From the human T2T-CHM13v2.0 reference genome, Homo sapiens, in assembly GCF_009914755.1 (NCBI RefSeq), contig NC_060935.1: a stretch of DNA of 64,000 nt; one strand, 5' to 3'. Below the pieces are notes generated by a model. The model worked only from the letters and a program-made list of their open reading frames with translations, did no database searches and was not told the DNA's origin. The first letter of the stretch is position 1, and each line of letters begins with the position of its first letter. Below, one piece after another: positions 40,237 to 63,694 of this stretch. Both the position numbers and the translations under genes were made by a program.

Positions 40237-40304
40237 ATTGTGGACAAGAACAACCGCTATAAGTCCATAGATGGCTCAGACGAGACCAAAGCCAACTGGA
40301 TGAG
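40237..40304 (+). CDS. PRDM11: PRDM11 coding exon D ([23 protein letters not shown]), middle of PR/SET domain; last exon shared by all predicted isoforms
   Basis: tttctctttcttccag|ATT acceptor, AG|GTGAGC donor (phase 2). Contains the PR motif IDG...NWMR. Confidence 0.95.
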
Positions 40305-42919
40305 GTGAGCCCTGCTCTGCTGATGTCCCGGGGGTCTTGCCTGGCCTCTGGAAAGGAGCCAAGGGAGTGTGTTGGACCTGTGGGAGCTCCAGTGGTGGAG
40401 ACTTCTGGAGGCTGCCGTTTGCAGGGTTTGGATGCATCTAGCTCTGAAGGACCCACCTTTTCCCCTAGGCCTCCATCAGGGGGCTCTAGAGGACGGCGTG
40501 TGGTCAGGCCGTTGGGATGCAGGGACCGCTCGGGCTGCTCACTTGCCAGTGTGTCTGGAGGTCCTGGGCCCCAGGCTCCTGGCAGCATTCCTAGGGAGGA
40601 GGAGGAGACTGTCCCCCACCTAGGACTGTGACACCTCAGAGCAGGCTCCTGCAGGGGTGGTGTGAGAATCGTCCCAGTGCAGCCCCAGCAGTTGTTTAAA
40701 CAGCCTCCATGGAAGAAAGGGCTCTGACAAAGTCTTCAGCTCAGTTTTTGACAGTGTTGCTGCCTATGTTTGAGTACTTTGAAGTGTCAACTTTACCCTG
40801 TTCCGGTGTTTGGGACAGAATTTTGCACCAGAAGTTTTCTTAAATGCCAACCAGAGGAGGCAGGAGACTGGCCCCAGGCAGGGTCACCCAGGGATGGCTG
40901 AGCTGAGCCCAGAACCATGGGTCCAGCGTGATGCTGATGGTCTGTGCCATGTGCGAGGGACTCTGCCTGGTGGGGTTTGTGGACAGGGGTGGGAGATCTG
41001 ACATGCCTTGTTGCCTGCTTGGTGGCCTCTCTCTGGGACCTAGGAGCACTGGCTGGAGATTTGGATCTGGGTGGGAGGGGAAGGAAGCCTCAGATGTCTG
41101 GAGTCAGGGGCACAGCCACACCATGGGCCTGGGGCCCTCTGCCGGCATTTGCACAGTTTTCTGACCCATGAGGCCTTGAGGCTGATGGTGGGATTGTACT
41201 TGGAGAGAGGGCAACTTCCTAAAAAGGAGTGTGCTGTCTTAAACTCGGAGACTTTCTAAGCAAATGAGGAGAAGCAGGTTTGAGGCGTAGAGTATGTGAT
41301 GAGGGCTCCTGTGTCCTTCCCAGTGGCTCCACTGCCCACCTATACTCCTATCAGAGAGTGGCTGAGCAGCAGTTCACACCTCCCAGATTACTTTAGCGTT
41401 CGCCCTCTTATGGGTTAGGGAAGGTGTTCTCATTGCCGTTTGATGGGTGCAGAACAGAGGCTCCAGAGACCAGCGGGCCCCCTGCCTTGCAGTGTGGAGA
41501 ATAGCACCGACTGCCCCCAACCTCCTTGGACACAGCTGATCTGACACTGCCCTGAAAGTGGCCCCAGGGAGGTGGCTTGACACCCTGACTGCCTTCTCTT
41601 CTCACTGCCACGGGGTCCAGGTCAGCTGAGCACTTACAGTTCATCACCTGTGTACTGAGCACCTAGTTTGAGTCAGACTGTGAAATGGGTACCAGGGTGG
41701 ATCACCCAGCCCTGCCCCACCACACCCCATGCCCCACCCCCGCTGGCCCTTCCCGGGCTCACACCTCCTACCACAGAGGTGACTTTCCAGTGTAGTTTTT
41801 GCACTGAGGCACAATGTGCTGCAGAGGCCCAGATGAAAGAGGAGGGGTTCGTTGACATGGGCCTTCAAAGGGGCCAGGATTGTGTCTGGGGACACTGGGT
41901 TGTGGTGTCTAGTCAGGCTGTTGGGCGGCTGCTCAGTTTGGACCCCAAGCCTGTGCTGCTGTGCTGCCTGCCCTGTGGCTGCAGCCTGGCTCCAGGCAAG
42001 CAGGGGAGACCGTGCGTGTGTCCACTTGGGAATCAGGCTTTCTGTGCTATTGCTTTTAAGGCGCCGGGAGCTTTGCCCATAGAACCGAATCTGTTCCACT
42101 CTTTCACCCATCTCTGATCTTTCCCCCTGGGGACAAGGCCTTCTCAAAACCCCAAAAAAGGGGAGCTATCATCCAAACTAACTTATCTATCCTCTGGCAC
42201 CCCGCAGATTGTGACTTAATTGGGCTGGGGATTGGCCTTGGGCCTTGGTATTTTTAAAGCTAGTGATTCTGATGTGCCACTAGCATTGAGAACCACTGCT
42301 CTGTACAGATCTTCATGCCACAGTGGTCAAGCTGAGAGCAGGGCAAGGTCTTGCTTAAGAGCATACAGTCAGGGTAGCAGAATCAGGATTTGAACTCCTG
42401 GCTCTGTAATCCTAGGTCGGTGTTCTTCCTGCTTGTGCACAAGGGACCAGGTGAAGCGTGGCTTCCTGGGCCTGGATGGGCACTGGTGAGCAGGGGTTTG
42501 GGGGTTTCTGCTACTGCCACCTTGCTAGCATGGTTTCTGTCCTGTTCTGCTCCCAGCCTGTCCTGATTCAAGATGGCATCTGGGTAGTCACAGCTGGTGG
42601 GCTCTCATCTTATGACCACTCAAAGAGCAGGTTTGGGTTAGGGATGCAGTTTGTTGCCACAGAGACGCCCCTCCTGTTGCTGTTGGAGTGACGGGAAAGC
42701 TGTTAATCCTGGGAATCCTCCTTTCCCTTCATGTCCAGCTTCCGTGGTGTGGCTCTTTCTGACTTGCAGATGCTCTCCTTTGCACTGTCATGGCACCGCT
42801 TGGGGATGATTGAATGGACTCAGTTAGTTTCTTAACAAAATTAATGGTGGGCCAGGAGGCGAATGGGCACTGTCGTGTTGAGCTTATCTTTATGACAGCC
42901 CCATCTAGGTGATCTGTCT

Positions 42920-43110
42920 GTGGTGGTTCTCAACCGAGCACTATTTTGTGCCCCTGGGGGCATTTGGCAAGGCCAATGTTTGATGGTTGGATGCTATCAG
43001 ATAGAAGCCAAGGATGTTGATAAAATCCTGCATTACACAGGACACCCCTTCCCCCCAACAAAAAATTATCTAGCCCCAACTGCCAATAGTGGCAAGATTG
43101 AGACACCCAC
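42920..43110. mobile_element. MER20 (hAT-Charlie MITE)
   Basis: gtggttctcaacc...ttttgtgcccctgggggcatttggcaa...tgccaatagtggcaagattgaga. Confidence 0.7.
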
Positions 43111-44393
43111 ATTAAGTCCTCCTGATAGCCCTGGACAGTGACACTAGAATTGTCACCCTAGTTTTATGGAGAAGGAGACTGGGTTCACACGAGTCCCATG
43201 GCTTGGCCCAAGGAGACTCAGTCTCTAGTTCCAGGTCTAGTCCCATATTCCTGCCACCATCTTGGACTGGGTAATGAGGCCCCCAGCCTTCTTCCCATCT
43301 TCTGGGCCCTGGTGTTTTGGGTGCTTGAGTAGGAAGGTGAGGGCTGAAGGATGTTGGTGCCGCCGGCCTTCCCCTCTTGGTTTCAGAAGGAAACCAAGGA
43401 GTGAATGCGCTCTGAGCTTTCCTCCATACCCTCATGTCCTCTCTTGGGTGGATTTTTTAACCTTTTATCACTAGTTAAAAGGGTGACAGAGCCACGATGT
43501 GGAGAAATCAAGTTCCAAAGCCAGAGCAGGAGCCAAGTGGGATGGAAGGGCCATGCTGTGCCCCTTGCCCAGGGCCTCTGGCTGCTCAGTTGAGAGGGAA
43601 TCCCAGGTCCCCCTGGTGTCCACCAAAGTGGAACTTGACTCCCTCAGGACAGTCGTGGGCTTCTCAAATTCTACCAAAAAGTCACAGCAGCCCACCCCCG
43701 AAGAAAGCACTCCCATGGGAAGGAAACCTGTTTGCCTGCACATATGCAAAGGTGGGGGCTTGGAGAACTGACCGGGACGGGGAAGGGGAAGAGAGCCACT
43801 AGGCAGAATAAGCTTTCTGTGGCCACACCCTAATCATGGCATTGTCACTGCTACACCCAACGGTAGCCAGTGTAAATAGTTTCCCTGGTTACGTATTCTT
43901 CCGAGCCATTCATTCAGCTGTAGGGCTGTAGGTAAATATCGCTTTATAGAGGCAATGGGCTAATCCTAATTTCAATAAGATCCTTTACTGCTATCTTTAA
44001 GAGATTTTAAGCCCCTTACATCATGATGTGTTTCCCTCCTTAGTAATAAACCCGAAGAGTTGTGGTTGTTATTCTGGACAGGGAGAATAAGGTGTGAAAG
44101 GTTGAACATGAACTGCCCTAGCTCTCACCGCTAGTAAGAGCTAAAGCAGGCCCTGAAACCAAGGCCTTCGACTCTGAGTTCAGTGCTCCCTCCCATGTAA
44201 CGCCGTCTCTTCTTTCCACCCTCCCCTCCGAGGAGTAGTGGAAGGGACCTCTCAGTAGGAGGAGGGTGTGGTGGGGGCCAGGTTGCCCCAGGTGCCTCCT
44301 GGCTCCCCAGCTGGGGGCCAGCAATTAGGAAGGAGAACCACCTGCATTGACGGTCATTTACCCAATTGTGCTTTGTGGGATATTCAACCCAAG

Positions 44394-44815
44394 GAATGTG
44401 GCACACCTGGCTGAGCGTAAGAGGAAGCCCAAGTTCTCCAAGGAGGAGCTGGACATTCTTGTCACAGAGGTGACCCACCATGAAGCAGTGCTCTTTGGGA
44501 GGGAGACCATGCGGCTGTCCCATGCTGACAGGGACAAGATTTGGGAAGGCATAGCCCGGAAAATCACCTCCGTCAGCCAGGTGCCCCGCTCCGTCAAGGA
44601 CATTAAGCACAGATGGGATGACATGAAACGGAGGACCAAGGACAAGCTGGCCTTCATGCAGCAGTCCCTGTCGGGCCCTGGGGCCGGGGGCCGGGCCCCC
44701 ACCATCGTGCTCACGGCCCACGAGAGGGTCATCAAGTCGGCGCTGCTCACGGCCCGTGCAGGGCGCGGCTTCCCCAGGGCGGAACTGGATGGCACCGACA
44801 GCCCTTCGACCAGCT
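44394..44815 (+). CDS. Intron-nested coding exon with a Myb/SANT-like DNA-binding domain (Myb_DNA-bind_5/MSANTD/NAIF1 type); predicted alternative PRDM11 exon
   Basis: Peptide RKPKFSKEELDILVTEV...LFG...KIWEGIARKI...RSVKDIKHRWDDMKRRTK fits the family pattern. Acceptor ccaag|G AAT is phase 2 (matches donor 40304), with a weak pyrimidine tract. Donor AGC T|GTGAGT is consensus. CpG-rich, codon-like composition. Confidence 0.85.
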
Positions 44816-45183
44816 GTGAGTATCACCAGTCCCCCCCGCCACCCAGCCGGCTGCCTGCCCCCCAGCTTACAGTCCACAGTCTCCCACCGACTTTCCCTCT
44901 GGTTCTCTCCTGTCCCTCTCTGTCCAGCCCACTCTTTCCATCCTCCCCTCCTTCTCCCACTCTTCTCCTCTCCATCCCTTTTTGCATTCATTCTCGAATA
45001 TTTACTGAGCATCTCCGTGCCAGAGCCGTGCTAGGAGCTGGGAAGACAGCTGTGTGTAAACCCCACGCAGGCCCTGCTCTTGGGGAGACCCTGGACTCCT
45101 AGGAATAAACCAACGTTAAATAATTGCACGAGTAAACTGGAAACGAAGGGATGGAGGACACAGGAGTCCAGGAGGTCCCGAGA

Positions 45184-45339
45184 GCAGGGCTGACTTCATG
45201 AGCATGCAACCTGAACAGTCACAGGGGCCGCGGGGTTTCAGGCTCTGCTGTCGCCATCTGGACATTCTTCATAGTTTTTGAGCCAGGGGCCCCACGTTTT
45301 CATTTTGCATTTGACCCTGCAGGTTATGTAGCAGCTCTG
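45184..45339. mobile_element. MER91-like hAT MITE
   Basis: cagggctgacttcatg...ctgctgtcgccatctgg...ggggccccacgttttcattttgca...ttatgtagcagctctg. Confidence 0.55.
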
Positions 45340-47226
45340 TCTGAGAGTTAAGGAGTGGGTAAAACTGGCTCCACTGGGGACTGGGGAGGGCTCCCTGAAG
45401 AAGTCCAGCGGACTAGGATGTGAAGAGTAAGAGTTAACCAGGCCAGGCAGCAGCGTGGGGCGCGGAGAAGGGGAGGGGAGGCGCGCAGGCAGAGAACAGC
45501 ATGTACGAGGCCCCGCATCAGGAAGGCGCTTGGCACGTTCCAGGAACAGTGAGAAGCCAGGAAAGCCCAAGTGTAGCAGCGCGGGGGAGGGGGCTGGAGA
45601 CGAGGCGGCCAAGCTGTGAAGGCCCGGGCCGGGCCATGGAAAGATCAGTTCCTTTCTGTGTCTGGTCCTGACTGCTTTGTTCCTCTATTATTACTCCCCT
45701 GCCTGAGCCACGCTGCCTGCCCCCACTTTTCTGTGTGCTGCCTCTCAGCTCCCTCTCCATCCTCCTGGCTGCTCCGCCACCCGCTCCCCACCCCTCTTCT
45801 CCCTCTGTACTTGTCCCTGCCTTTCCTCTCTACTTCCTGTGTCTCACATGCACTTTGAAGCCAGGGCCCCAGCGGCCGAGGCGGGTGTCCCTTGGGGCTG
45901 GAGTTCTAGTTGGGGCTCAGCAGAAGGGGGAGCACTAAAGGCCTCCGCAGGGACTGCAACCCTTCCTTTCCACTTCTGCACATCTCCCCCGTGCCCCGCC
46001 AGCTGCAGTCCCCACTAGAGGCCGTCTGCCTGACCGGCTCGTGAGTGGTGGGAGCCAGGCAGGAGGGGCCCCGGGGAAGCAGCCGTGGCTCAGCCCATGG
46101 GAAGGTGCTTTGCAAAGACTCACTTGCACCTTCCCTTCCCGGGCCCCCTGCCATTGTGATCCACTTGCTTCCTGTTTGGCTGGGGCTCCTGACAGGTGGC
46201 AGTTCACAGAGTCAGATGTTTAGGACTGGAAAAGAACATGGAGACCATTTAGTTCAACTTCCTTGCAATGCAGAAAGTAAGCTCTGAAAACCAAGGTGGC
46301 CCTGAGCTCAATTCAGAAGCAGGACTTGAACCCGGGTCTGCTGGCTTCCTGTGAATCAGTGTTTTCCTAAGTCTTAAGAGGATTCCACCCCGTGATAAGA
46401 AAAAATGGGGGGGTCAGCATCCAGTAAAGCCTGTTCCCTGCATCCTGCTCCGCTCACCCCTCCATCTCCCTGAGACTGAATGTAATGAGGCCACCAAAGG
46501 TAACCTGGGCTGGCAGGGAGCCCGAGTGTGCCATCAGGCAGAGCCCGCTCACCCCCATGGCAGGCTCACAGCCCTCCTTTTCCTGGCAGTGGCCAGCTGC
46601 GGCAGCACTCGGCCAGGGGCTTGGCAGAACGGGGACCTGGGAGGGAAGGAGCAGCATCACCTCGCCGGGTCTCACTCCTTCCAACACTGGCCATGCTAGA
46701 CAGGTCTCTGGGATCTCAGGGGATGGCTGCTGTCCCACCAAACACTGCCAAGAGACACAGGACTCTTACCAAGCTGGCCCAAGTGAGCCCCCAGGACCCC
46801 TGGGAGGCATGAGGTAACTGTAAGATAAACCTGTCTGTCCTCCCCATCACCTTCCTGGGGGGTGGTTCTGAGTTGAGTCCGCAGATCCAGGCAGGGAGGG
46901 CTTGCCTGTCAGTAGGGTCAGCCCATACATCATTTAATCCTGCCACAGGGATCAGCCCATACCCTTGGTCACCAGAAAGCAGGACCCACATGTGCAGAGG
47001 CTGGGCCCCCTCCCTGTGTCCGGCTGCAAGGAGCAGTCTGTCCGATGGCCCCTGTGCGGTCAGATGCTCCTGGATGGGAGCACGATGTGACTGAACTGGA
47101 AGCCTGCCTTGGGGGACAGGGGGACAGCAGGGCTGGTTGCAGAGGTGGCTCTCCTGCTCTGCACTGTCCTGCCAGTTTCTTCAGCCTGTCAGCATGTGCT
47201 GCAGTGATTTAAAGATGCAGATTCCA

Positions 47227-47432
47227 TATTAGTAGTCTTTTATCCCTCACCCCCTTCCCACTCTTCCCCCCAAGTCCGCAAAGTCCGTTGTATCAATCTT
47301 ATGCCTTTGTGTCATATGGCACAGTGTATACTGCTTGGGTCATGGGTGCACCAAAATCTCACAAGTCACCACTGAAGAACTTCCTCATGTAACCAAACAC
47401 CACCTGTACCCCAATAACTTATGGAAAAAAAA
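47227..47432 (+). mobile_element. Short L1PB 3' end with 5' inversion, TSD TGCAGATTCCA
   Basis: Antisense L1PB 3'UTR piece (~47227-47317) joined to a sense piece ending in an A-tail. TSD at 47216-47226 and 47436-47446. Confidence 0.8.
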
Positions 47433-48004
47433 GTGTGCAGATTCCAGCAAGGCCACAAGATGGCCCCAAGCAATGCAGACGTGGCCTCAGAAAGTCTGGT
47501 GCTCAGAGGGCCAAGAGCGTCTTAGTACCTTTAGGCAGGTGCCGCTCCTTCAGCGTTACAGAGCACCTTCATGTTTGTCATCTTGTTTATGACTCTTCTT
47601 AACAACCCAATTAGGTAGCCAAGCGGTTCGATGTGTAGACAGGGCAGTCGTTATCATTGCAGAAAGTGAGGTGCAGAGAGATGAACTGACTGCTGAGGTC
47701 AGGAGCTGCTGGGTTGGCACGCAGCCGGTGGGCCACGGTCTCCAAGTCCCCTGGCCTGGGCTCTTCCCCACTAGAATAGAGCTGTTCCGTTGAGAGGAAG
47801 AGGAACTTCCCCCCAGGGATGCTGGGCCCACGCACCTCAGGGATTTGGGGAACGTGGATTTCTCTATGGGCGGGGGCCAAACTAGACCGCAGGGTGGCAG
47901 GGCAGGGGGATACTCAGGTGTTTTTCAGGGGCAGGGCCAACCCCTGGGCCTCCCTCCTTCTCCCTTTTGTAACCACTTTTCCATCTTTGTTTCTGTCCCC
48001 CAAG

Positions 48005-48579
48005 ATGATGAAGATGAGGAGGCGCCTGGGCCCTCAAGGCAGCCTCTTCGGGTGCCTCTGCAGCGGTCTCCGGAGGAAGAGGCCCACCTGGCCAGGCCCG
48101 CCCTGCTCCGTTCATCCTCCTCCTCAGACCAGTCTGAGACGGTGGGCCCCAAGCCAGAGGCCCTGCCCCATCCCTCGCCCCAGGCCCAGGCTGCCTGCAG
48201 GACCCCTCGGCCGCACCCCAGCCCACCCACCACGGGCCTTGACTGGCAGCTCCTCCACGTCCATGCCCAGCAGACCGAGGTGTTCCGGCAGTTCTGCCAG
48301 GAGCTGGTGACCGTGCACCGGGACATGGCCAACAGCATGCACGTCATCGGCCAGGCCATGGCCGAGCTGACCAGCCGTGTCGGTCAGATGTGCCAGACGC
48401 TGACAGAGATCCGGGATGGGGTTCAGGCATCTCAGCGGGGGCCAGAAGGGGCAGACCCTACGGGCTCCACTCCCCAGGCCACCCAGGCCCAAGCCCCCCT
48501 GCCAGAGCCCCCACCAGCTTCCCCAGCATCAGCCCCCACACGGACTACCAGGTCTCGGAAGAGAAAGCACAATTTCTAA
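48005..48579 (+). CDS. Terminal coding exon of the Myb/SANT-like isoform: acidic/Pro-Ser linker, amphipathic helical region, C-terminal basic RTTRSRKRKHNF
   Basis: Long pyrimidine tract + cccaag|AT GAT. Phase 1 matches donor 44815 (T+AT=Tyr). Open to TAA at 48577-48579. AATAAA at 50247. Confidence 0.8.
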
Positions 48580-49433
48580 CCCAGCTAGTCTGCACTAGGA
48601 GGAAGAGTCATGGAGGAGGGATGTCTGGCCTCACAACAGGGGCCAGTCTTTCGTGTCCAGGAACAGGATCGATGACCCTTGTAGGACACTGGGGGCGCTG
48701 TTACCTCCTCACCGAGCGCAGGTCGCTGCCCTGTGGTCTAACAGAGCATGTATTCAGACCCGCACCCTCATCTTTGGCGGATGCTGAAGATGCAAGAAAA
48801 GCCACCTGCTTGATGCTTGCTTGGCCTGGAGATCGTTCTCCTCTTGGTCTGTGTCCCGTGGCGGCAGGCCTTGCAGGGAGGGGGGCGCAACAGTGGGGAG
48901 CATCCGAATGGAGTCCCACTTTCCAACCTTGGGGCTGCTGCATCGGCCTCCCACATGTGACCTCCCAGGCCCTGATGCTGCTTCTTTTGAAGGGGGTGAG
49001 GCCTGATGGGCAGGTCAAGTCGGTCCTTCAGGGAGGGGTCTACCCTCCCTTGCCCGGGGGTGGTGCCCGCCTTGGCCCTCCGCTTGCCCTTGTGCGCGTG
49101 CTCAGCTGCTGTGCTTGCCTTTTTTGGAGTGGGGAGAAGAATGGGATGACGTCGGAGGAAGGAAAAGACTGTCTTGCATTCATAGAGAGCACTTTATGCT
49201 TTTCCTCGCCCTTGCAGAGTCTGGGTGGTCTCAGTGGGGGCTCAGGACAGTCAGCTCAAGACAGCCAAGTCAGGTATTATTATGATCATTTTTATCATCA
49301 TCATCTGTATAAGACAAATGACACAGCCAGTTAGTGAGAGGGCCAGGACTGGAAGCCAGGGTATCGGTTTTCCCAGCTCCCCTGTCAGAGGCCAGATCTG
49401 GAGTAGTGGGAAGAGGACGCAGGGGGCAGGTCT

Positions 49434-49477
49434 TGCCCCTTGCCAGGCCTCTGCCCCTTGCCAGGCCTCTGCCCCCT
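49434..49477. repeat. 18-bp tandem repeat (TGCCCCTTGCCAGGCCTC), ~2.4 copies
   Basis: Seen directly; lies in the predicted 3'UTR of the Myb isoform. Confidence 0.8.
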
Positions 49478-50246
49478 GTATCTCTGCTTCTGCCTCAGCT
49501 GTCCTGGGTGAGGTGGGAGGCACCTAGCATTTAGCAGGTGATTCTCCCACCCTGCCCTGGCTCTATGGCTCATAGCCAGTGGCTTGGAGAGGCAGGGCCA
49601 GATCTCAGGAGTGGAGGGCAACCTCTTCCCTGGCTTCTAAAAGAATCCAGAGCCCAGTGGGGCTCATGTCCCATTCCAGGTTCCAGCATGCCTTGCCTCT
49701 GCTTGCTCGGGCTGCCTACGCACTAGCTACATACACCTCTAGCTTCATGTTTCATGTTGGAGTGTGGGGAGAAAACTGGGTTCTTAGCATTAGAGAGGGA
49801 AGTGGCAGGTGGCAGATACAAGCTTAGCTCTGACCTGGGTGCACCTCAGCTCTGTGTCCTTTTTTTTCCCTGACCTGAAGCTGACCCCAGCAGAAGTCCC
49901 CCAGCCAACCCCTCCACCCAACAACCCCCCACCCTCCCATCCTGCCCCCAGCCATAGTGGGAGCTGGGAGGATTGCAGCATCTAGTGCCTTCCAAGGCTG
50001 TTCCTGGAGCGCTGCTTGTAAACCCAAGCCAAGCTTTGTCCCACGTAGGGAGAATGGAAGGTGACTGCAATGTCCCTGTGCCTTTGGCTCCATCTCCCCA
50101 TTCTGTGGTTCTTTGGGGGTTCCTGCTTCCCTCAAACTGAACACTCTCCTGTCCAACAGCCTGATGGCTTAATTATTGCCTGGAATTGCCCGGCCTCCGA
50201 TGCTGGAATCAAAGATTGCCTTCCGAAGTATTTTTGTTAAGATGGC

Positions 50247-50252
50247 AATAAA
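50247..50252 (+). terminator. Polyadenylation signal for the Myb/SANT-like isoform
   Basis: First AATAAA I could find downstream of the stop at 48579. Followed ~45-70 nt later by a T/GT-rich tract (tctttctttggtgtgtattctctttc). Confidence 0.6.
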
Positions 50253-52916
50253 AAGAAATCAATCTCACTCTTTGAACACACCCAGTGTCCAGGATCTTTC
50301 TTTGGTGTGTATTCTCTTTCTTCGTTTCCTGTGAAAACCTCGAGGACCCCAAAGCAGGGGTTAGATGTTTAAGGAAAAGCAGGTTGGTGAGAAGGGCTCA
50401 AGTGCCCCTTGATTTCCCTGATTCTATAAACTGCCAGATTCCCTGTATCCAGCACCATGCCAGGCCCTCGGAGGAAAGGAAGGGCATGCATGCACGAAAC
50501 CACTCAGTTATATTTCATTTCTCTGCTCAAAAGTGAGGTGTTGCTAAGTCAATTTTACCTTTTGTTCCCTAAAAGTAAGCGAGAAGTTCTGGAAAAACAA
50601 TCACCGTTTCGGACAGGAGGCTCTAGAAGGGTCAGGGGCTGTCCATGTGCCAGTGCACTTTAGGGGCCACCTGGAGGCATGACCCTCCCCACCAATCCAG
50701 GTGTCTGTGTGTCTGGCACTGGCAAGGCTCTGCCCACCTAGATCTGAGGCTTCTCAAAGTAACCAAAGCTGCCTCCTCTGCCAAGAGGAAGCCTCCTCAC
50801 CTGTGCATTGCCCTGGCTTAATACCAGTCTCAGAGAGCTTCTCTCAGGCAGGAAATCCCCTAGTCTTGCCCACAGATCCCCTTTCTAGAAGGTTCTAACT
50901 TGCCATCCTCCACAGTTCTTGGCCAAAAAGCATGGCCATAGAAATGGAGGACTACCCAATTTCCGAGAGATGCAAAGATGTCGTGAAACCATTCCCAGGG
51001 CCTTCTCTCCCAAGGTCAATGTATGAAGCAGTGACTGGCTGGCTGCTCTCTCTCTTCCTGGGGAGGGAAGGAGCCAAATTGGAAGCTGTAAAACTGAAAT
51101 GGAAGTCAGAGCAAAAGGGACAGTGAGGACTTGTCAACTTGGGATGGAAAAGATTTTCAGTTTCTGTTTCTTGGCTTCAGTGGGGATTGTTGGGCTAGCA
51201 CATTAAAACAGGAAGAGGAAACTTGGGTGAGAGACAGAAATGAATTGGAAGAGGGAGGCCTCTAGCCATGACCAGGTGACCATCTGGTGGGTGGATGTGT
51301 GACCCAAAGCCCCTCCTAGCCCGGAGACCTATGCATGTGAGAACACAGAGCCCAGCCTCTTCTCAGTCGGTCTTTTCCTAGTTCTGCCTCCTTAACTGGG
51401 GCAGCTTCCTTTGTATTGAAGATACCCACTATGCAATAGTGTCTGAGCCTGGCCTAGTCAATTCCCTCCAGCAAAATGGATGCCCTGTGTTATGTTTTCT
51501 TTGCGTTAGAAACAATAGTCATGTGCTGACCCAGCTAGAAAATATGATGCACTTGATAAGACACAGTGGGTGAGGTCTGAGAATTGTTGTCTTAGTACTT
51601 ACCTATCCAGTCCCCAAGGTCAGCTGGGAGGTTGGAATAAAAACAATCCAGGATCATCATGACAGGTTTAGTCCAGAGCTCTCCACCGCCATCAGCAGCA
51701 CCACCACCTTCCCCTTGATTGCTCCAAAGGTCCCAAATTCTGTGGGTTGGAGTTGAAATGCCTCAATAAGCACTAGCATTTGCAGAACAGTCTCAGCCAG
51801 GCATTCTCTGTGCCTTCTCTCAAGAGGTAGTGACCTGGTAACACTTCAAACCTCCTTGAAAGAGCTGCTCAGCCACAGTGGATAGATTTTGCCCCTCCTG
51901 GTAGCCTTCCACTCCTTGGGGAGGGCTTCTGATTTCTGCAGCCATGTAATGAATGGAACAGGCACAGTTCTTCATAAAGGGGTTGTTGTGAATGGGGACA
52001 GAAGGGTTCTGGGGGGTGGTCGAGCCAGCAGGTGTTAAGGCAAAACACTTAAAAGCAGGAGATCTAATCAGAGGTAACAGGTCTGGGGACCTAGCTGGCT
52101 TCATTTAGCTTTACCTCTTAAATGGTATAACATAAACATCTTGTCAGGGGAATGGGTTGTGATTCACCAAGAGTTGCCATATACATTGTATTTCAAATGC
52201 TAAGTTTCAGAACAACAAATACAACAAAATCTGAATAAGCATTGATCTGCCTTTGAAAATACTTTGTGATTTATACAACGCCTTGAGGTTAGCTTTCCAA
52301 ATATTGATTCTTGATGGATAGAAAAAGACCAGAAGATGGAAAGTTAAATTGACTTGAGTCTTTCTAAACCTTTTGACACACCCTAGAAGTTGCTCTTTTG
52401 AATAAATAAATCCCAGATAGGAATGTATTTCTCATCTAGCTTTTTCTCTTGATGTCAAGTGTCAGAGAAATAATTCTAGCTTTTAGAGGTTGGTGGTTGT
52501 TTAGAAACTGGAAGAAAAAAAGGAGAAGACAGTATTCTCCAATCATAGTGCTATGATTCAAGTGAGTCTTGTGAGAAAAAAGACGAATGAATGGTTTCCC
52601 TTTTGTATCTGGGAGCAGGAAAGTTTGGAACAACTTCTATTCTGTGCTAACCGCAAGGTTGATTATTTTTGGATGTCAAATCCTAGACTCTCACTAAATT
52701 GGGGACTGGAAATATTTTGCATATTCAGAAGAAATCTCAGCTATGGAGAAAAGACTGACTCACAGTTGTAGAATTGAGATTGGGAATTATTAATTTGGAG
52801 TGACTTCTCTCACTCCAAATTAAAGGAAAAGGGGCTCTTTTCCTTTCTCTTAAGTCCTTTGTTAATAACATCCTGGCTGGGTGCGTGGAAATCACCCTGT
52901 GGTCTTCACTACTCAG

Positions 52917-54661: not shown

Positions 54662-54828
54662 TGTGAAATACTGGAAACAGTTGAAGGACCCCAGCCTTAC
54701 CACCTTCAGAGGCCTGTGGGTATCTGGGAACCCCAGTGGTTAAAAGTTAGTGAAGAGTAGAAGAGATAACCTTTCAGTTTTTCAATCACTTATAATATTT
54801 AGTTGATATATTTTCCATATGGTGTGAG
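54662..54828 (+). repeat. Copy 1 of a ~170-bp local direct repeat
   Basis: Aligns by eye with 55681-55849 (aaggaccccag..accac.tcagaggcctgt.gggtatctgggaacccc.gtggttaaaagtt.gtgaagagtagaaga...gttgatatattttccata). Confidence 0.85.
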
Positions 54829-55104
54829 GCAGGCAGGGCAGGTGTCATATCCAGTCTCAGAAAACAGAGATTCTTAGAGGTTTGGAGATCTGCTTGAGGT
54901 CCCACAACACGGTGACGTTGGGACAGGGATGGGTTCTGGCTGGTGCTGCTTCTCCGGACAGGGCAGCTGCTCTGCTGATGTTCACATGGGCCCACGTGCC
55001 TGTGGACTTCTAACCATCCACACTTGCCCAGCACTGTGCCGGCACCAGCGGGCACTCAACAAAGGGTGGCCCGTGCGTTCTCACCTGTCTCCCCTCCCCA
55101 CCAG

Positions 55105-55292
55105 GTACGTGGTCATCTCCCGGGAGGAGAGGGAGCAGAACCTGCTGGCGTTCCAGCACAGTGAGCGCATCTACTTCCGGGCGTGCAGGGACATCCGGCC
55201 TGGGGAGTGGCTGCGGGTCTGGTACAGCGAGGACTACATGAAGCGCCTGCACAGCATGTCCCAGGAAACCATTCACCGCAACCTGGCCAGAG
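55105..55292 (+). CDS. PRDM11: PRDM11 coding exon E: C-terminal half of PR/SET domain ([40 protein letters not shown])
   Basis: ccag|G TAC acceptor (phase 2), G|GTGAGT donor (phase 1). Contains the EQNL, IYFRA.RDI.PGE.L.VWY PR motifs. Confidence 0.95.
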
Positions 55293-55680
55293 GTGAGTGC
55301 CATGCTCCACATGAGCTGCGCCCACCTCTGAGCCCCAGGGGAGGCCTGGATAGCTTGTTTTGGAGCTTCCTGAGAAATACGGTTCCCAGCAATGGGAAGA
55401 CCCAGAGTGATTCGGGGGAACAGATGGTTGAGGTCTGAGCAGCAGCTCTGGGCCAAGCAGGGGCCACCCCAGCATGTTATCGACCCCTAGAAATGGTCTC
55501 AGAAATCCTTACCACACACATTTCAGAGTATTCATGAGAGAGACGCCCCCAAAACCGAGCAAATATGTTTAATCAAAATGTACCCTATTTCCCCAACTCC
55601 AGTTGATGAAAAGATGTTACAAACTGCCACTGCCTCAATAATGATCGTAATAATAGGTAACATTTACTAAATACTCAATA

Positions 55681-58568: not shown

Positions 58569-58858
58569 AGCTGGGTGCCATGGCTCATGCCTGTAATCTC
58601 AGCACTTTGGGAGGCCAAGGTGGGCAGATGGCTTGAGCCTAGGAGTTTGAGACCAGCCTGGGCAACATGGCGAAACCCTATCTCCACAAAAAGTACAAAA
58701 ATTAGGGTGTGATGGCTTGTGTCTGTAGTCCCAGCTACTTGGGAGGCTGAAGTGGGGGGATCACTTGAGCCTGGAAGGTGGAGGCTGCGTGAGCACCACT
58801 GCACTTCAGCCTGGACAACAGAGTGGGTCTCTGTCTCAAAAAATAAAAATTAAAAACA
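58569..58858 (+). mobile_element. AluJ
   Basis: Diverged Alu with J-type features (gcttgagcctaggagtttgagaccagcctgggcaac). Confidence 0.9.
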
Positions 58859-59751: not shown

Positions 59752-60443
59752 GAGAGAAGAGGTTGCAGAGGGAGAAGTCTGAGCAGGTTCTGGATAACCC
59801 AGAAGACCTGAGGGGTCCCATTCATCTCTCTGTGCTGAGACAGGGCAAAAGTCCCTACAAGCGTGGCTTTGATGAGGGGGATGTACACCCCCAAGCTAAG
59901 AAGAAGAAAATTGACCTGATTTTCAAGGATGTTCTGGAGGCCTCACTGGAATCTGCGAAGGTGGAAGCCCACCAGTTGGCCCTGAGCACCTCACTGGTCA
60001 TCAGGAAAGTCCCCAAATACCAGGATGACGCCTACAGTCAGTGTGCAACAACAATGACCCATGGTGTGCAGAATATAGGCCAGACCCAGGGGGAGGGGGA
60101 CTGGAAGGTCCCCCAGGGGGTCTCCAAGGAGCCAGGCCAATTGGAGGATGAAGAAGAGGAGCCTTCATCATTCAAGGCCGACAGTCCTGCCGAGGCCTCC
60201 CTTGCATCTGACCCTCATGAACTTCCCACCACCTCTTTTTGCCCTAACTGTATTCGCCTAAAGAAGAAGGTTCGGGAGCTCCAGGCAGAATTAGACATGC
60301 TTAAGTCTGGGAAACTTCCTGAGCCCCCCGTATTGCCACCACAGGTACTGGAGCTCCCAGAGTTCTCGGACCCTGCAGGTAAGTTGGTTTGGATGAGATT
60401 ATTGTCGGAGGGCAGAGTACGCAGTGGGCTGTGTGGAGGGTAG
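59752..60443 (+). CDS. PRDM11: PRDM11 coding exon F. Internal donor after 60378 is used for the long isoform; read-through to the stop at 60443 gives the 477-aa short isoform
   Basis: ttccttcctag|GA acceptor, GCA G|GTAAGT donor at 60378/60379. ORF has a KKKK basic patch and CPNC followed by a heptad-like segment. Summed CDS 1434 nt = 477 aa + stop. Confidence 0.93.
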
Positions 60444-60602
60444 CCTAAAGCTCTCTGTGGAAACCACCTTCCGGGAGACCTGAGGAGTGTAACGTGGAGG
60501 CGGCTACCTCCGTGGGTGGGAGCCCAGGTCCTCAGTGTCTCTGGCAGACCCATCGGCAGCTCTGCCAGGTGCTCCATGTGTTGCCCTTGTATCCTCCTTG
60601 TC

Positions 60603-60608
60603 AATAAA
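60603..60608 (+). terminator. Intronic polyadenylation signal for the short PRDM11 isoform
   Basis: AATAAA 160 nt after the stop at 60443, followed by GT-rich tgtgtgctgtgttcttg at ~60631-60647. Confidence 0.65.
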
Positions 60609-61529
60609 GGAAGTTCCGCTGCAGAAGGGGTGTGTGCTGTGTTCTTGACCCGTTGCCTTTCTCTGGTACTGGTGTCTTACCCCAAAGCCCAATTTCTAAA
60701 CCCAGTCTTTCTCTGTCCCCAGTCTCAAGCAGGGTGTCCCACTGGAGAGATCTCTTGGCTTCCCTAACTTAGTCCAGGAACACAGCCTTGTTCTTCTCTT
60801 CCTGAATCTCTGTCCTGCCACACATGGTCCCAGTTCCCTAGCCTGGAGTTCTGGAAGGATGGAGAGTGAGGGGATCCAGGCCATTCACCTGCATGGCTTT
60901 GCCCTATTCTGTTGGCTACCTGGATTTCTAGAGTTGGTCGACAACTAGGCAGGTGTTCTAGTTCATATCTGCAGCTGAGGGAGACTGTTTACATAGCACT
61001 TACTCTTTTAACCACATCCCTTAGCTCAGAATGAGGTGTTTCTTGTATTCAAAGCATGCGTCTGAACTAAACTGCATTTTGATCCTGAAATCACTTGGGG
61101 CCATATCCAAGATGCCTTTGTTCACATTAATGAAGGGCAAATGAATCCCAAGTCCTTGCCATATAACTTTGGAATGTGTGATGTGCTTTTCCTCCTCCAT
61201 TAGATCTACTCTCCTAGCTTGTGCTGTCCAGTTGATAGGGGGCATTTAAATCCCTCAAACACCCACACATGGAGGGCAAGGGCAGGCAGCCTGAAATCTG
61301 GTGGGTGTGACAAGGCAACCGTGGACAATCACAGGGAGAGTAAAAGTCACATGGGCAAGCAGGAGTGCTCATAAACTAATTCTGGGCTGGGATTCAATCC
61401 ATCATAGGCTTCCACGGACTTCTGTTTCCCATGGTGTGGCACCTACCTTCCAGGAGTGTTTCCTGTGGATTTTGGAAAAGCCTGTTTTCTCCCCCAGGTA
61501 TAAATGTTTCTTTCCCATTTGTTTTTCAG

Positions 61530-63694
61530 CCTCAGAAAGCATGGTCTCCGGCCCCGCCATCATGGAGGATGATGACCAGGAAGTCGATTCAGCAGATGAA
61601 TCTGTCTCCAATGATATGATGACAGCGACGGATGAGCCCTCCAAGATGTCATCGGCCACCGGGCGCCGAATCCGGCGCTTTAAGCAGGAATGGCTGAAGA
61701 AGTTCTGGTTCCTGCGGTACTCCCCAACCCTCAATGAGATGTGGTGCCACGTCTGCCGCCAGTACACGGTGCAGTCCTCACGCACCTCGGCCTTCATCAT
61801 TGGCTCCAAGCAGTTTAAGATTCACACCATCAAACTTCACAGCCAGAGCAACCTGCACAAGAAGTGCCTGCAACTGTACAAGCTCCGCATGCACCCGGAG
61901 AAGACAGAGGAGATGTGTCGCAACATGACCCTGCTCTTCAACACCGCCTACCACCTGGCCTTGGAGGGCAGGCCCTACCTGGACTTCCGGCCCCTGGCGG
62001 AGCTGCTGAGGAAGTGTGAGCTCAAGGTGGTGGACCAGTACATGAATGAGGGAGACTGCCAGATCCTCATCCATCACATCGCCCGGGCCCTGCGGGAAGA
62101 CCTGGTGGAGCGCATCCGCCAGTCACCTTGCCTCAGCGTCATCCTGGATGGGCAGAGCGACGACCTGCTGGCCGACACGGTGGCTGTCTATGTTCAGTAC
62201 ACCAGCAGTGATGGGCCCCCGGCCACAGAGTTCCTGTCCCTGCAGGAGCTGGGATTCTCTAGCACAGAAAGCTATCTCCAGGCACTTGACCGGGCCTTCT
62301 CGGCCTTGGGCATCCGGTTGCAGGATGAAAAGCCAACTGTTGGCTTGGGTGTAGACGGAGCCAACATCACAGCCAGCCTCCGTGCCAGCATGTTCATGAC
62401 CATCCGCAAGACGCTGCCCTGGCTGCTGTGCCTGCCCTTCATGGTGCACCGGCCCCACCTGGAGATCCTGGATGCCATCAGCGGGAAGGAGCTCCCATGC
62501 CTGGAGGAGCTGGAGAACAACCTGAAGCAGCTGCTGAGCTTCTACCGCTACTCACCGCGCCTCATGTGCGAGCTGCGGTCCACGGCGGCCACCCTTTGTG
62601 AGGAGACAGAGTTCCTGGGCGATATCCGGGCAGTGCGGTGGATCATCGGCGAGCAGAACGTCCTCAACGCTCTCATCAAGGACTACCTGGAGGTGGTGGC
62701 CCATCTCAAGGAGGTCAGCAGCCAGACCCAGCGGGCAGACGCCTCGGCCATCGCACTGGCCCTGCTGCAGTTCCTCATGGACTACCAGTCCATCAAGCTC
62801 ATCTACTTCCTGCTGGACGTGATTGCTGTGCTCTCGCGTCTGGCCTACATCTTCCAGGGCGAGTACCTGCTGGTGTCCCAGGTGGATGACAAGATCGAGG
62901 AGGCCATCCAGGAGATCAGCCGGCTGGCTGACTCCCCGGGAGAATACCTGCAGGAGTTCGAGGAGAATTTCCGAGAGAGCTTCAACGGGATCGCCATGAA
63001 GAACCTCAGGGTGGCTGAAGCCAAGTTCCAGTCCATCAGGGAGAAGATCTGCCAGAAGACCCAGGTCATCCTGGCTCAGAGGTTCGACTCCCGCAGCCGG
63101 ATCTTTGTGAAGGCCTGCCAGGTGTTTGACCTGGCTGCCTGGCCCAGGAGCAGTGAGGAGCTGATGAGCTATGGCAAGGAGGATATGGTGCAAATATTTG
63201 ATCACCTGGAGGCCATCCCGACCTTTTCCCGGGATGTCTGTAGGGAAGGGCTGGACCCCCGGGGTAGTCTGTTGATGGAGTGGCGAGAACTCAAGGCCGA
63301 TTACTACACCAAAAATGGCTTCAAAGACCTGATCAGCCACATTTGCAAGTACAAACAGAGGTTTCCACTCTTGAACAAGATCATCCAGGTTCTTAAAGTC
63401 CTCCCCACTTCCACCGCTTGCTGCGAGAAAGGCCGCAATGCCCTCCAGCGAGTTCGCAAAAACCACCGCTCCCGCCTGACCCTGGAGCAGCTTAGCGACC
63501 TGTTGACAATCGCTGTAAACGGACCGCCAATCACCAACTTTGATGCCAAGCGAGCCCTGGACAGCTGGTTTGAGGAGAAGTCTGGGAACAGTTACGCGCT
63601 GTCTGCAGAAGTCCTCAGTAGGATGTCTGCGCTGGAGCAGAAGCCAGCACTACAGACCATGGACCACGGGACGGAGTTTTACCCCGACATTTAG
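61530..63694 (+). CDS. PRDM11: PRDM11 long-isoform terminal exon: domesticated hAT-transposase-like module (TTF-type zinc finger, RNase H-like core, hAT C-terminal dimerisation region; ZNF862-like)
   Basis: gtttttcag|CC acceptor (phase 1). Single 2165-nt open exon with FKQEWLKKFWFL...WCHVC...H...H, ILDG, VDGAN, VRW, STACCEKG and RSRLT motifs. Summed CDS 3534 nt = 1177 aa + stop. Confidence 0.92.

What the first reader, a model, noticed from the sequence alone, without database searches (positions are those of the whole stretch)
40237..63694. One N-terminus, alternative transposon-related C-termini: a splice/poly(A) switch between a Harbinger-type Myb module and a hAT transposase module
Seen: the shared exons can end in three mutually exclusive ways, each with its own stop. 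These are the Myb/SANT form (516 aa, AATAAA 50247, half PR domain), the short form (477 aa, AATAAA 60603, whole PR) and the hAT form (1177 aa, whole PR). Knowledge: host-domain/transposase fusions made by alternative splicing are known (SETMAR, CSB-PGBD3, KRAB-transposase fusions). Inference: capture of modules related to two different DNA-transposon superfamilies as alternative ends of one PR/SET gene would be unusual. It would let the same zinc-knuckle N-terminus be targeted by different DNA-binding domains, and the Myb form could act as a natural 'PR-minus' antagonist, a recurring theme among PRDMs.
Basis: partly seen in the sequence, partly recalled or inferred. Interest (0 to 1): 0.85.

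Follow-up and report, generated by a model that had tools for sequence, protein, structure and literature searches.

The report
PRDM11 gene with three endings
The human PRDM11 gene can finish its protein in three ways, and two of those endings add DNA-binding parts that descend from ancient jumping genes, which may explain how this zinc-finger-less family member finds DNA.

Summary
RefSeq and the sequence give three mutually exclusive PRDM11 ends of 516, 477 and 1177 aa. Each has an open spliced frame, its own stop and, for the two ends inside the window, a single AATAAA.

The 516-aa end keeps only the first part of the PR domain. It adds a two-exon Myb/SANT module (Pfam PF13873, E 3e-21). The closest human relatives of this module are MYPOP, TSNARE1, NAIF1 and MSANTD4. 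The module and its junction with the PR exon recur in gene models from frog to human.

The 1177-aa end adds one exon whose closest human relative is ZNF862. A profile built from it and its paralogues hits only the Hermes hAT transposase in the PDB. It has a BED-like zinc finger, and Asp, Asp and Glu at the aligned catalytic places in 120 of 120 mammalian clusters.

The Harbinger origin rests on family membership and on one published remark ("data not shown"). I could not test it against transposon proteins. The "PR-minus antagonist" idea was not tested.

This is a new variant of the known host-transposase fusion theme, in an already annotated gene.

The parts
17288..18644 (+). Shared N-terminal coding exons (17288-17406, 17767-17870, 18382-18644). 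They hold the zinc knuckle and the first part of the PR domain.
   Evidence: RefSeq CDS. Exon 18384-18644 matches PRDM2_PR profile positions 6-48 and the PR zinc-knuckle model at E 6e-4, which is under its cut-off. It is identical to 3RAY chain residues 33-119.
40237..40304 (+). Last exon common to all three forms. It covers PR profile positions 50-71 and ends with two bases (AG) of a split codon.
   Evidence: Both alternative next exons supply a G, giving AGG (Arg) in either case.
44394..44815 (+). Myb exon 1. The Myb/SANT (PF13873) domain lies at 44422-44652. The acceptor is AAG with a weak pyrimidine tract. The second codon is GTG in human.
   Evidence: Pfam E 3e-21. It is 45% identical to MYPOP over 89 aa, E 4e-26. 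Identity to human is 73-94% from frog to placentals. The acceptor tract has 9 of 18 pyrimidines against 12-17 of 18 elsewhere.
48005..48579 (+). Myb exon 2 coding part: acidic and Pro/Ser-rich linker, a conserved helical stretch, and a basic tail ending the 516-aa protein.
   Evidence: Translation. No Pfam family. Conserved from frog to human, and the helical motif is also seen in a sawfish protein.
48580..50280 (+). 3' UTR of the Myb form, with AATAAA at 50247-50252.
   Evidence: It is the only AATAAA/ATTAAA in 48579-50400.
55105..55292 (+). Second part of the PR domain. It is used by the 477-aa and 1177-aa forms and skipped by the Myb form.
   Evidence: PRDM2_PR profile 73-121, E 3e-18. Identical to 3RAY residues 143-204.
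59752..60378 (+). Linker exon with no recognised domain. Its donor is CAG|GTAAGT.
60379..60623 (+). Read-through of the donor. It adds 21 residues and the stop at 60441-60443 of the 477-aa form. AATAAA lies at 60603-60608.
61530..63694 (+). hAT-transposase-derived terminal coding exon of the 1177-aa form (stop at 63692-63694). The 3' UTR runs past the window.
   Evidence: ZNF862 is the best human paralogue, E 1.3e-85 and 290 bits. Identity is 97-100% in the 120 mammalian clusters listed. A profile hits only Hermes in the PDB. Atlas neighbours are hAT families.
61709..61882 (+). BED-like zinc finger at the start of the hAT module, with Cys72, Cys75, His103 and His109 of the exon translation.
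   Evidence: zf-C17orf113 E 6.8e-9. The four ligands are invariant in the four human paralogues. Codons checked.
62147..62641 (+). Core of the hAT module: Asp206 (62147-62149), Asp275 (62354-62356), His306 (62447-62449) and Trp370 (62639-62641).
   Evidence: These align to the Hermes D, D, CxxH and RW motifs, but that stretch scores low (7.1 bits). They are invariant in the four paralogues and kept in 120 of 120 mammalian clusters.
63347..63511 (+). hAT C-terminal dimerisation region, with Glu632 at 63425-63427.
   Evidence: Dimer_Tnp_hAT at 18.0 bits, under the cut-off. This is the best-scoring stretch of the profile match to Hermes (16.3 bits; whole-sequence E 1.9e-5). Glu is kept in 120 of 120 clusters.

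Best explanation
PRDM11 is one transcription unit with three alternative last exons. All forms share the zinc knuckle and the first part of the PR domain. (1) Splicing from exon 40237-40304 into two weak AAG acceptors inside the next intron ends the message at 50280. The product is the first part of the PR domain fused to a complete MYPOP-like Myb/SANT factor, made of a Myb domain, a linker, a helical stretch and a basic tail. (2) Skipping those exons restores the whole PR domain. If the donor at 60378 is then read through, intronic polyadenylation at 60623 gives the 477-aa protein, which has no DNA-binding module. (3) If that donor is used, one large terminal exon adds a domesticated hAT transposase, made of a BED-like zinc finger, an RNase-H-like core and a hAT dimerisation region. 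Shown here: the exon structure, the frames, the poly(A) signals, the family assignments and the deep conservation. Inferred: that the two modules supply alternative DNA targeting or multimerisation to a PRDM that lost the C2H2 array of its parent PRDM9; that the choice is set by competition between splicing and polyadenylation; and that both modules began as transposon genes.
For: Structure. Both alternative exons complete the same AGG codon. The two Myb-specific acceptors are AAG, while the seven other acceptors examined are CAG or TAG. The first Myb acceptor has 9 of 18 pyrimidines.

Myb module: PF13873 at E 3e-21. The human paralogues by rank are MYPOP, TSNARE1 (two hits), NAIF1 and MSANTD4. 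It is 45% identical to MYPOP over 89 aa. Atlas neighbours are PF13873 clusters, including a NAIF1 cluster. Of 92 hits to the frog module, 62 carry both PF13873 and the PR family. These come from a frog, a turtle, the tuatara, lizards, birds, the echidna, the koala and placentals. Of the 94 proteins show the same 'NWMR|N' junction, 24 do not, and 15 did not fit my pattern. PMC9392472 names PRDM11 as a putative Harbinger-Myb-derived gene.

hAT module: ZNF862 at E 1.3e-85, then KIAA1586 and an intragenic SPEF2 relic. ZNF862 is listed as hAT-derived in PMC3257199. Atlas scores reach 0.97 to clusters carrying DUF4371, FAM200-ZBED5_RNase-like and Dimer_Tnp_hAT. A four-paralogue profile finds four distinct PDB sequences, all Hermes transposase, at E about 2e-5. 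Dimer_Tnp_hAT matches 3 of 4 paralogues at the loose E-value limit of 1 used in that call; the human PRDM11 exon's own match is under Pfam's gathering cut-off (18.0 bits against 21.4). Identity is 97-100% over 720 aa in the 120 listed mammalian clusters, including armadillo, elephant and dugong. Asp, Asp and Glu are kept in 120 of 120. Neither module overlaps a masked repeat.
Against: No transcript, poly(A) or protein data were examined, so use of the ends rests on RefSeq curation. The human exon alone gives no PDB hit even at E up to 10, and it is under Pfam's cut-off for Dimer_Tnp_hAT. The Hermes alignment over the two Asp and the Trp scores only 7.1 bits. The catalytic mapping there rests on motif resemblance plus invariance among paralogues. 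The Cys of the CxxH motif is Phe in PRDM11, and the residues after the Glu differ from the paralogues.

The Harbinger origin was not tested against transposon proteins. No Harbinger transposase relic lies in the window. Myb exon 2 shows no significant similarity to MYPOP exon 2 (BLASTP E 1.9; hhalign probability 0.3%). The tree that groups the module with MYPOP has weak support, 80/69. Stand-alone models of the Myb module exist: 24 of the 94 proteins. I saw the hAT exon only in placental mammals, because just 120 of 675 hits were listed.
Confidence: 0.75

Rival explanations
1. The Myb exons are, or were, an independent nested gene, a MYPOP paralogue with its own start codon and promoter. On this view PR-Myb messages are conjoined-gene products of little importance, and the module entered by gene duplication, perhaps as a 2R ohnologue of MYPOP, and not by a transposon landing in PRDM11.
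For: 24 of the 94 proteins are stand-alone models of about 320-360 aa, mostly named 'myb-related transcription factor, partner of profilin-like'. The second codon of the exon is Met in the frog, sauropsids, echidna, koala, wombat and some rodents. Counts where my pattern fitted: 21 Met against 28 Val among fused models, and 16 Met against 4 Val among stand-alone models. MYPOP and the module both have a phase-1 intron after the linker that follows the Myb domain. A sawfish protein of 363 aa with its own start shares both the Myb domain and the helical motif. RefSeq hESC enhancer marks lie over 44920-49480. Chr11 and chr19q13 hold many same-family gene pairs, but I picked those pairs from memory, so this is no test.
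Against: In human the open frame upstream of the exon has no ATG, and the second codon is GTG. There is no CpG island near the exons. The exon begins at a splice acceptor. Curated human NM_ transcripts join it to PRDM11 exons. The same junction appears in 55 models across tetrapods. Many stand-alone models start in sequence that is intronic in human, just 5' of the acceptor.
Confidence: 0.3
2. The hAT module is still an enzyme. On this view PRDM11-long is a chromatin-reading PR/SET protein joined to a working DNA nuclease or strand-transferase, and the module is more than a DNA-binding and dimerising scaffold.
For: Asp206, Asp275 and Glu632 sit at the places aligned to the Hermes catalytic motifs, and Trp370 sits at the RW motif. 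All are invariant in the paralogues that cover them and in 120 of 120 mammalian clusters.
Against: The whole exon is 97-100% conserved, so keeping three residues says little by itself. The alignment over the two Asp is weak. The CxxH Cys is Phe, and the residues next to the Glu differ from the paralogues. From recall, many domesticated transposases keep parts of the triad without activity. No fold model could be made.
Confidence: 0.12
3. The three ends are annotation noise around a single functional product. Only one form is made as protein, and the others are rare by-products.
For: No expression data were seen here. Reviews treat PRDM11 as one protein of 511 aa without DNA-binding motifs (PMC4009873; PMC4760075). 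The donor that the 477-aa form reads through is a full consensus, CAG|GTAAGT. That argues for low use of the 60623 site.
Against: Both added modules are under strong constraint. Myb exon 1 is 73% identical between frog and human. The hAT exon is 97-100% identical across the listed mammals. Such constraint is not expected of untranslated by-products. All three stops lie in terminal exons, so none should trigger nonsense-mediated decay (the rule itself is established knowledge). All three forms have curated NM_ records.
Confidence: 0.07

Closest known systems
CSB-PGBD3 (ERCC6 with a piggyBac transposase in an intron)
   Same: A transposase-derived terminal exon inside or after a host gene is joined to the upstream host exons by alternative splicing. 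It has its own poly(A) site and coexists with the host-only message. The Cosby et al. preprint cites it with SETMAR as the model for transposase capture (passages). The details of the locus are recalled.
   Different: PRDM11 has two such modules from different superfamilies, plus a module-less end. Both modules are far older. The Myb junction is shared by a frog and amniotes, and neither module is recognisable as a repeat.
SETMAR (SET domain plus mariner transposase)
   Same: A SET-class domain is fused to a DNA-transposase-derived DNA-binding and catalytic module (zebrafish gene table in PMC2200798).
   Different: SETMAR uses a Tc1/mariner element and is primate-specific (recalled). PRDM11 uses a hAT-type module and a PR-type SET domain. 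Its fusion is present in Xenarthra, Afrotheria and Boreoeutheria.
ZNF862 (KRAB/zinc-finger protein with a hAT-derived C-terminus)
   Same: It is the closest human paralogue of the PRDM11 hAT exon: 28-29% identity over about 680 aa, E 1.3e-85. The module is likewise one large ORF of 714 aa. It has the same zinc-finger ligands and acidic residues. PMC3257199 lists it as hAT-derived. Some PRDM11 orthologues were auto-named 'zinc finger protein 862(-like)'.
   Different: The host part differs, being KRAB/C2H2 in ZNF862 (recalled) and PR/SET in PRDM11. I did not test whether the two modules come from one domestication or two.
MYPOP, NAIF1 and TSNARE1 (PF13873 Myb-like genes linked to Harbinger elements)
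   Same: They share the same Pfam family. MYPOP is the nearest human relative of the Myb exon. NAIF1 is the accepted Harbinger Myb-derived gene. TSNARE1, MYPOP and PRDM11 are named as putative further cases (PMC9392472). TSNARE1 is also a Myb-plus-host-domain fusion.
   Different: In PRDM11 the module is an alternative C-terminal end that replaces half of a PR domain. Beyond the Myb domain, similarity to MYPOP is not significant.

Membership tests
hAT transposase-derived (domesticated) protein | N-terminal BED-type zinc finger (C-x2-C ... H-x3-5-H/C) | tested here: met
   zf-C17orf113 at E 6.8e-9, over its cut-off. Cys72, Cys75, His103 and His109 are invariant in the four human paralogues. The label 'BED-type' is my reading of the spacing, from recall.
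hAT transposase-derived (domesticated) protein | RNase-H-like core with Asp, Asp and Glu, plus the CxxH and RW motifs, in hAT order | tested here: inconclusive
   A paralogue profile aligns Asp206, Asp275, His306, Trp370 and Glu632 to the matching Hermes motifs. The stretch over the first four scores only 7.1 bits. The Cys of CxxH is Phe.
hAT transposase-derived (domesticated) protein | C-terminal hAT dimerisation domain (PF05699) | tested here: inconclusive
   The human exon alone scores 18.0 bits against a 21.4-bit cut-off. At the loose E-value limit of 1, 3 of 4 paralogues match, best E 7.9e-8; the SPEF2 fragment in that alignment lacks the region, which lies in a separate ORF. The profile match to Hermes is strongest here, with whole-sequence E 1.9e-5.
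hAT transposase-derived (domesticated) protein | Closest relatives are hAT transposases or accepted hAT-derived genes | tested here: met
   ZNF862 and KIAA1586. Atlas clusters carry DUF4371, FAM200-ZBED5_RNase-like and Dimer_Tnp_hAT. The only PDB hits are Hermes.
hAT transposase-derived (domesticated) protein | Terminal inverted repeats and 8-bp target duplication around the element | not tested
   The 3' UTR runs past the window. After more than 100 million years these are expected to be gone. No masked repeat overlaps the exon.
Harbinger Myb-like-derived gene (NAIF1/MSANTD type) | Tri-helix Myb/SANT-like domain of the PF13873/PF13837 type | tested here: met
   PF13873 at E 3e-21. PF13837 at 2.6e-5, under its cut-off. 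Classical Myb (PF00249) only at 0.0037.
Harbinger Myb-like-derived gene (NAIF1/MSANTD type) | Groups with Myb-like proteins encoded by Harbinger transposons | not testable with these tools
There is only indirect support: NAIF1 at E 3.6e-7, a NAIF1 cluster in the Atlas, and the remark in PMC9392472.
Harbinger Myb-like-derived gene (NAIF1/MSANTD type) | Fixed, single-copy, orthologous position under constraint (no longer mobile) | tested here: met
   The same junction to the PRDM11 PR exon appears in 55 models from frog to human. The human genome has one copy plus distant paralogues. The exons are not masked as repeats.
Harbinger Myb-like-derived gene (NAIF1/MSANTD type) | Trace of the partner Harbinger transposase (DDE_Tnp_4) nearby | tested here: not met
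   PF13359 matches in the human genome are the two HARBI1 exons and one chr5 relic, with none in the window. HARBI1 lies 1.37 Mb away. I do not read that as evidence.
Host-transposase fusion gene born by alternative splicing (Cosby et al.) | [quoted passage not shown] | tested here: met
   The criteria are taken from the preprint passages. Whether PRDM11 is in that paper's list is unknown, because the list is in a closed supplement.

The most novel reading that the evidence does not exclude
PRDM11 is the sister gene of the recombination-hotspot writer PRDM9. On the boldest reading it replaced the ancestral C2H2 array with two transposon-derived targeting modules, chosen by 3'-end selection. 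The hAT module has Asp-Asp-Glu unchanged in every mammalian cluster seen. On this reading it is still a nuclease or strand-transferase, so the long form would be a chromatin-guided DNA-cutting enzyme. The Myb form and the module-less form would act as its non-catalytic competitors at shared partners.
Probability: 0.1. Interest if true: 0.85.

Novelty: new variant of a known kind. Interest (0 to 1): 0.58.

Why it matters
Reviews describe PRDM11 as the one PRDM protein without zinc fingers, and as a 511-aa protein (PMC4009873; PMC4760075). One review also reports that it sits at transcription start sites (PMC13203297). The sequence suggests how it could reach DNA. The RefSeq Select form carries a BED-like finger inside a hAT-derived module, and a second conserved form carries a Myb/SANT domain. 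The classical short form carries neither. Work done with the short cDNA may therefore have missed the targeting parts.

For transposon biology, this would be a host gene that uses parts from two DNA-transposon superfamilies as mutually exclusive ends. The Myb junction is shared by a frog and amniotes. The hAT exon is 97-100% identical across the mammals I could see.

In the library I could search, nine PRDM11-related searches and one on host-transposase fusions found no paper linking PRDM11 to hAT. One paper links it to Harbinger. The supplement of Cosby et al. was closed and may list it.

Tried and rejected
No fold model and no fold search were made.

A PDB search with the single human hAT exon gave nothing at E up to 10. 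Only the four-paralogue profile reached Hermes.

NCBIfam gave only chance-level rows. Rfam gave no match in the window.

I looked for homology between Myb exon 2 and MYPOP exon 2. By eye the layout is similar, with a Pro-rich part, a helix and a basic tail. BLASTP (E 1.9) and hhalign (probability 0.3%, E 0.2) do not support it, so I claim MYPOP similarity only for the Myb domain and the intron phase.

An uncorrected tblastn run produced many spurious Pro-rich hits and was set aside.

I found no Harbinger transposase relic in the window and no CpG island or other promoter sign at the Myb exons.

Five other long ORFs in 40-64 kb, including antisense ones, have no Pfam family.

I could not date the hAT exon beyond placentals.

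The chr11/chr19 paralogy list used pairs I recalled, so it is an idea and not a test.

The Myb-domain tree has no starred branch. I use it only as agreement with the BLAST ranks.

Papers: I read passages only of PMC9392472, PMC2200798, PMC5519329, PMC7177584, PMC3257199, bioRxiv 10.1101/2020.05.07.082677, PMC11601247, PMC4009873, PMC13203297, PMC4532500 and PMC4760075. All other papers I saw only as search listings. Sinzelle 2008, Smith 2012 and Fog 2015 I know only through those passages.

Full report
WHAT IS THERE. The window lies inside PRDM11. RefSeq gives curated transcripts with three coding ends. All of them share exons 17288-17406, 17767-17870, 18382-18644 and 40237-40304.

After that exon the message takes one of two routes. 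It can enter 44394-44815 and 48005-50280, with the stop at 48579, to give 516 aa. Or it can skip these exons and enter 55105-55292 and 59752. On the second route, the donor at 60378 may be read through to a stop at 60443 and a transcript end at 60623, giving 477 aa. Or the donor is spliced to 61530, with the stop at 63694, giving 1177 aa (the RefSeq Select transcript).

I joined the exons in a script. The lengths are 516, 477 and 1177 aa, with no internal stops. All junctions are GT..AG. Each of the two ends inside the window has a single AATAAA, at 50247 and at 60603, which lies 33 or 20 nt before the transcript end and is followed by GT-rich sequence. All three stops are in terminal exons.

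THE PR DOMAIN. Pfam places PR-profile positions 6-48 in exon 18384-18644, positions 50-71 in 40237-40302 and positions 73-121 in 55106-55291. The first and last of these exons are identical to residues 33-119 and 143-204 of the solved PRDM11 PR domain 3RAY. The 516-aa form therefore lacks the last third of the solved domain, so "half PR" is fair. Both alternative next exons begin with G and complete the same AGG codon. The exons are therefore exchangeable in frame.

THE MYB END. Exon 44395-44814 matches Myb_DNA-bind_5 (PF13873) at E 3e-21. The classical Myb model scores only 0.0037.

In the human genome its relatives are, in order, MYPOP (E 7.5e-19), two places in TSNARE1, NAIF1 and MSANTD4. 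BLASTP against MYPOP gives 45% identity over 89 aa, E 4e-26. A small tree groups the module with MYPOP and a sawfish protein, but support is weak at 80/69. Atlas neighbours are PF13873 clusters, including a NAIF1 cluster.

The second exon (48007-48576) has no Pfam family. It is also not significantly similar to MYPOP's second exon. MYPOP and the module do share a phase-1 intron after the linker that follows the Myb domain.

CONSERVATION OF THE MYB END. A search with the exon found 30 proteins among 66 candidates; 362 candidates from samples alone were left out. Identity to human was 93-94% in a whale, a stoat and a marmot, 87-88% in rodents, 79% in the wombat, 74-80% in birds and reptiles, and 73% in the frog Ascaphus.

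A second search used the frog module and found 92 proteins among 295 candidates; 754 were left out. By my count of the table, 62 of the 92 carry both PF13873 and the PR family, 2 carry the PR family only, and 28 carry Myb families only. The 62 include a turtle, the tuatara, lizards, many birds, the echidna, the koala and placentals. Most are named PRDM11 isoforms of about 510-530 aa.

I also applied a pattern test to all 94 proteins from the two searches. In 55 the PR exon ends "NWMR" directly before the module, 24 do not show this, and 15 did not fit the pattern and were left unclassified. Both exons, the intron place, a helical stretch and the basic tail are conserved from frog to human. The only hit outside tetrapods was a stand-alone sawfish protein of 363 aa (E 2e-19, 30% identity). 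It shares the Myb domain and the helical motif.

A NESTED GENE? The 24 unfused models are mostly about 320-360 aa (range 249-363). They are mostly named "myb-related transcription factor, partner of profilin-like". Many begin in sequence that in human is intron, just 5' of the acceptor.

The second codon of the exon is Met in the frog, sauropsids, monotreme, marsupials and some rodents, but Val (GTG) in human and most placentals. In human the open frame upstream holds no ATG, and there is no CpG island nearby.

I read this as a module that may once have been, or in some lineages still is, able to stand alone. In human it depends on the PRDM11 exons.

Its acceptors are poor. Both Myb acceptors are AAG, whereas all seven other acceptors examined are CAG or TAG. 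The first has 9 of 18 pyrimidines against 12-17 of 18 elsewhere. That fits a regulated, minority splice.

IS IT HARBINGER-TYPE? NAIF1 is the accepted Harbinger Myb-derived gene. Etchegaray et al. state, with data not shown, that MYPOP, ZSCAN20, PRDM11 and TSNARE1 are further putative cases (PMC9392472, passages).

I could not compare the module with transposon-encoded Myb proteins. A search of the human genome for the Harbinger transposase domain found only HARBI1 and one chr5 relic. The label is plausible by family membership but is not shown here.

THE hAT END. The 720-aa exon translation matches zf-C17orf113 (E 6.8e-9). It matches Dimer_Tnp_hAT only under the cut-off.

Its best human relative is the terminal ORF of ZNF862, at E 1.3e-85 and 28-29% identity over about 680 aa. 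Next come split ORFs inside SPEF2, then KIAA1586, then C17orf113. ZNF862 is listed as hAT-derived in PMC3257199. Atlas neighbours, with scores up to 0.97, carry DUF4371, FAM200-ZBED5_RNase-like and Dimer_Tnp_hAT.

The single sequence finds nothing in the PDB. A profile of the four human paralogues finds four distinct sequences, all Hermes hAT transposase, at E about 2e-5.

In that alignment Glu632 falls on the Glu of the Hermes C-terminal motif, in a 16.3-bit stretch. Asp206, Asp275, His306 and Trp370 fall on the Hermes Asp, Asp, CxxH and RW motifs, in a weak 7.1-bit stretch.

These residues and the four zinc ligands are invariant among the paralogues that cover them. The Cys of CxxH is Phe in PRDM11. 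Their role in Hermes catalysis is recalled, not tested.

The exon is 97-100% identical in all 120 mammalian clusters listed, including armadillo, elephant and dugong. The three acidic residues are present in 120 of 120. Only 120 of 675 hits were shown, so I cannot say how far beyond placentals the exon goes. Neither module overlaps a masked repeat.

HOW IT MOST LIKELY WORKS. This is a choice among alternative last exons. There is a skipped terminal exon pair (Myb), a composite terminal exon made by reading through a donor (short form), and a distal terminal exon (hAT).

The Myb route competes through weak acceptors. The short route must beat a consensus donor, CAG|GTAAGT. I therefore expect the hAT form to be the default and the other two to be regulated. 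That expectation is inference.

PRDM11 arose from a PRDM9 duplicate before the jawed-vertebrate ancestor (PMC5519329), and it is described as the PRDM without zinc fingers (PMC4760075). The two modules would give it back DNA binding, through a Myb domain or a BED-like finger. They would also give it self-association, through the helical stretch or the hAT dimerisation region.

The Myb form is not a classical PR-minus form, because it keeps the N-terminus and loses the C-terminal part of PR.

COMPARISON AND NOVELTY. The mechanism is that of known host-transposase fusions such as CSB-PGBD3, SETMAR and KRABINER (preprint passages).

Three things are unusual. Modules from two superfamilies serve as mutually exclusive ends of one gene. 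Both are old and tightly constrained. And the domain replaced or extended is a PR/SET domain of the PRDM9 lineage.

The gene, its isoforms and its domain hits are all in public annotation, and the Harbinger link is in print as a remark. In ten searches I found no paper linking PRDM11 to hAT. The list of fusion genes in Cosby et al. is in a supplement I could not open.

I rate this a new variant of a known kind, of moderate interest.

Noticed in passing
L003 1420-2703 and 3512-3964 (G000 C5:36036298-36037431 and 36038462-36038686, inside SPEF2): A hAT-like sequence split into two ORFs. One of 427 aa carries the zf-C17orf113 finger (E 1.7e-11). One of 150 aa carries Dimer_Tnp_hAT (E 1.2e-4). It is the second-closest human relative of the PRDM11 hAT exon. 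I could not tell whether it is a relic or part of a gene, because only chr11 transcripts were on hand.
   Followed up: partly
chr11:46758900-46773965, outside the window: HARBI1, the Harbinger transposase-derived gene, lies about 1.37 Mb from PRDM11 on the same arm. It holds the only strong DDE_Tnp_4 matches in the genome. The proximity may be chance.
   Followed up: no
window 44329-44393: The 22 codons 5' of the Myb exon acceptor are open in the exon's frame. The last 14 or so recur almost unchanged at the start of bird, reptile and mammal gene models. This could be a conserved splicing control region or the remains of an older N-terminus.
   Followed up: partly
window 44920-49480: RefSeq marks H3K27ac-H3K4me1 hESC enhancers over the Myb intron and second Myb exon, and again at 54541-55662 around the second PR exon.
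   Followed up: no
window 60373-60384: The donor that the 477-aa form reads through is a full consensus, CAG|GTAAGT. The poly(A) signal lies only about 225 nt downstream. That is an odd pairing for an intronic poly(A) site.
   Followed up: no
window 15501-16750: This is the only CpG island in the window (GC 0.74, observed/expected 0.69). It sits at the alternative first exon 16557-16688.
   Followed up: no
chr11 22-66 Mb and chr19 48-58 Mb: Seventeen of eighteen gene-family pairs I recalled, such as NR1H3/NR1H2, SPI1/SPIB, MYBPC3/MYBPC2 and MARK2/MARK4, fall in these two stretches, around PRDM11 and MYPOP (the eighteenth, LRP4/LRP3, has LRP3 at chr19 35.7 Mb). The Myb module and MYPOP could be whole-genome-duplication twins. 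The pairs were hand-picked, so this is only a lead.
   Followed up: partly
window 59752-60378: Many mammalian models of 968 aa, and human XM_054369440, skip this linker exon in frame. There is thus a fourth, shorter hAT-bearing form.
   Followed up: no
PMC4009873, table: Mouse Prdm11 is listed there at 565 aa. PR-Myb models of 550-576 aa occur in rat, Arvicanthis and Microtus. The mouse protein used in the literature may therefore be the Myb form. I did not check this.
   Followed up: no
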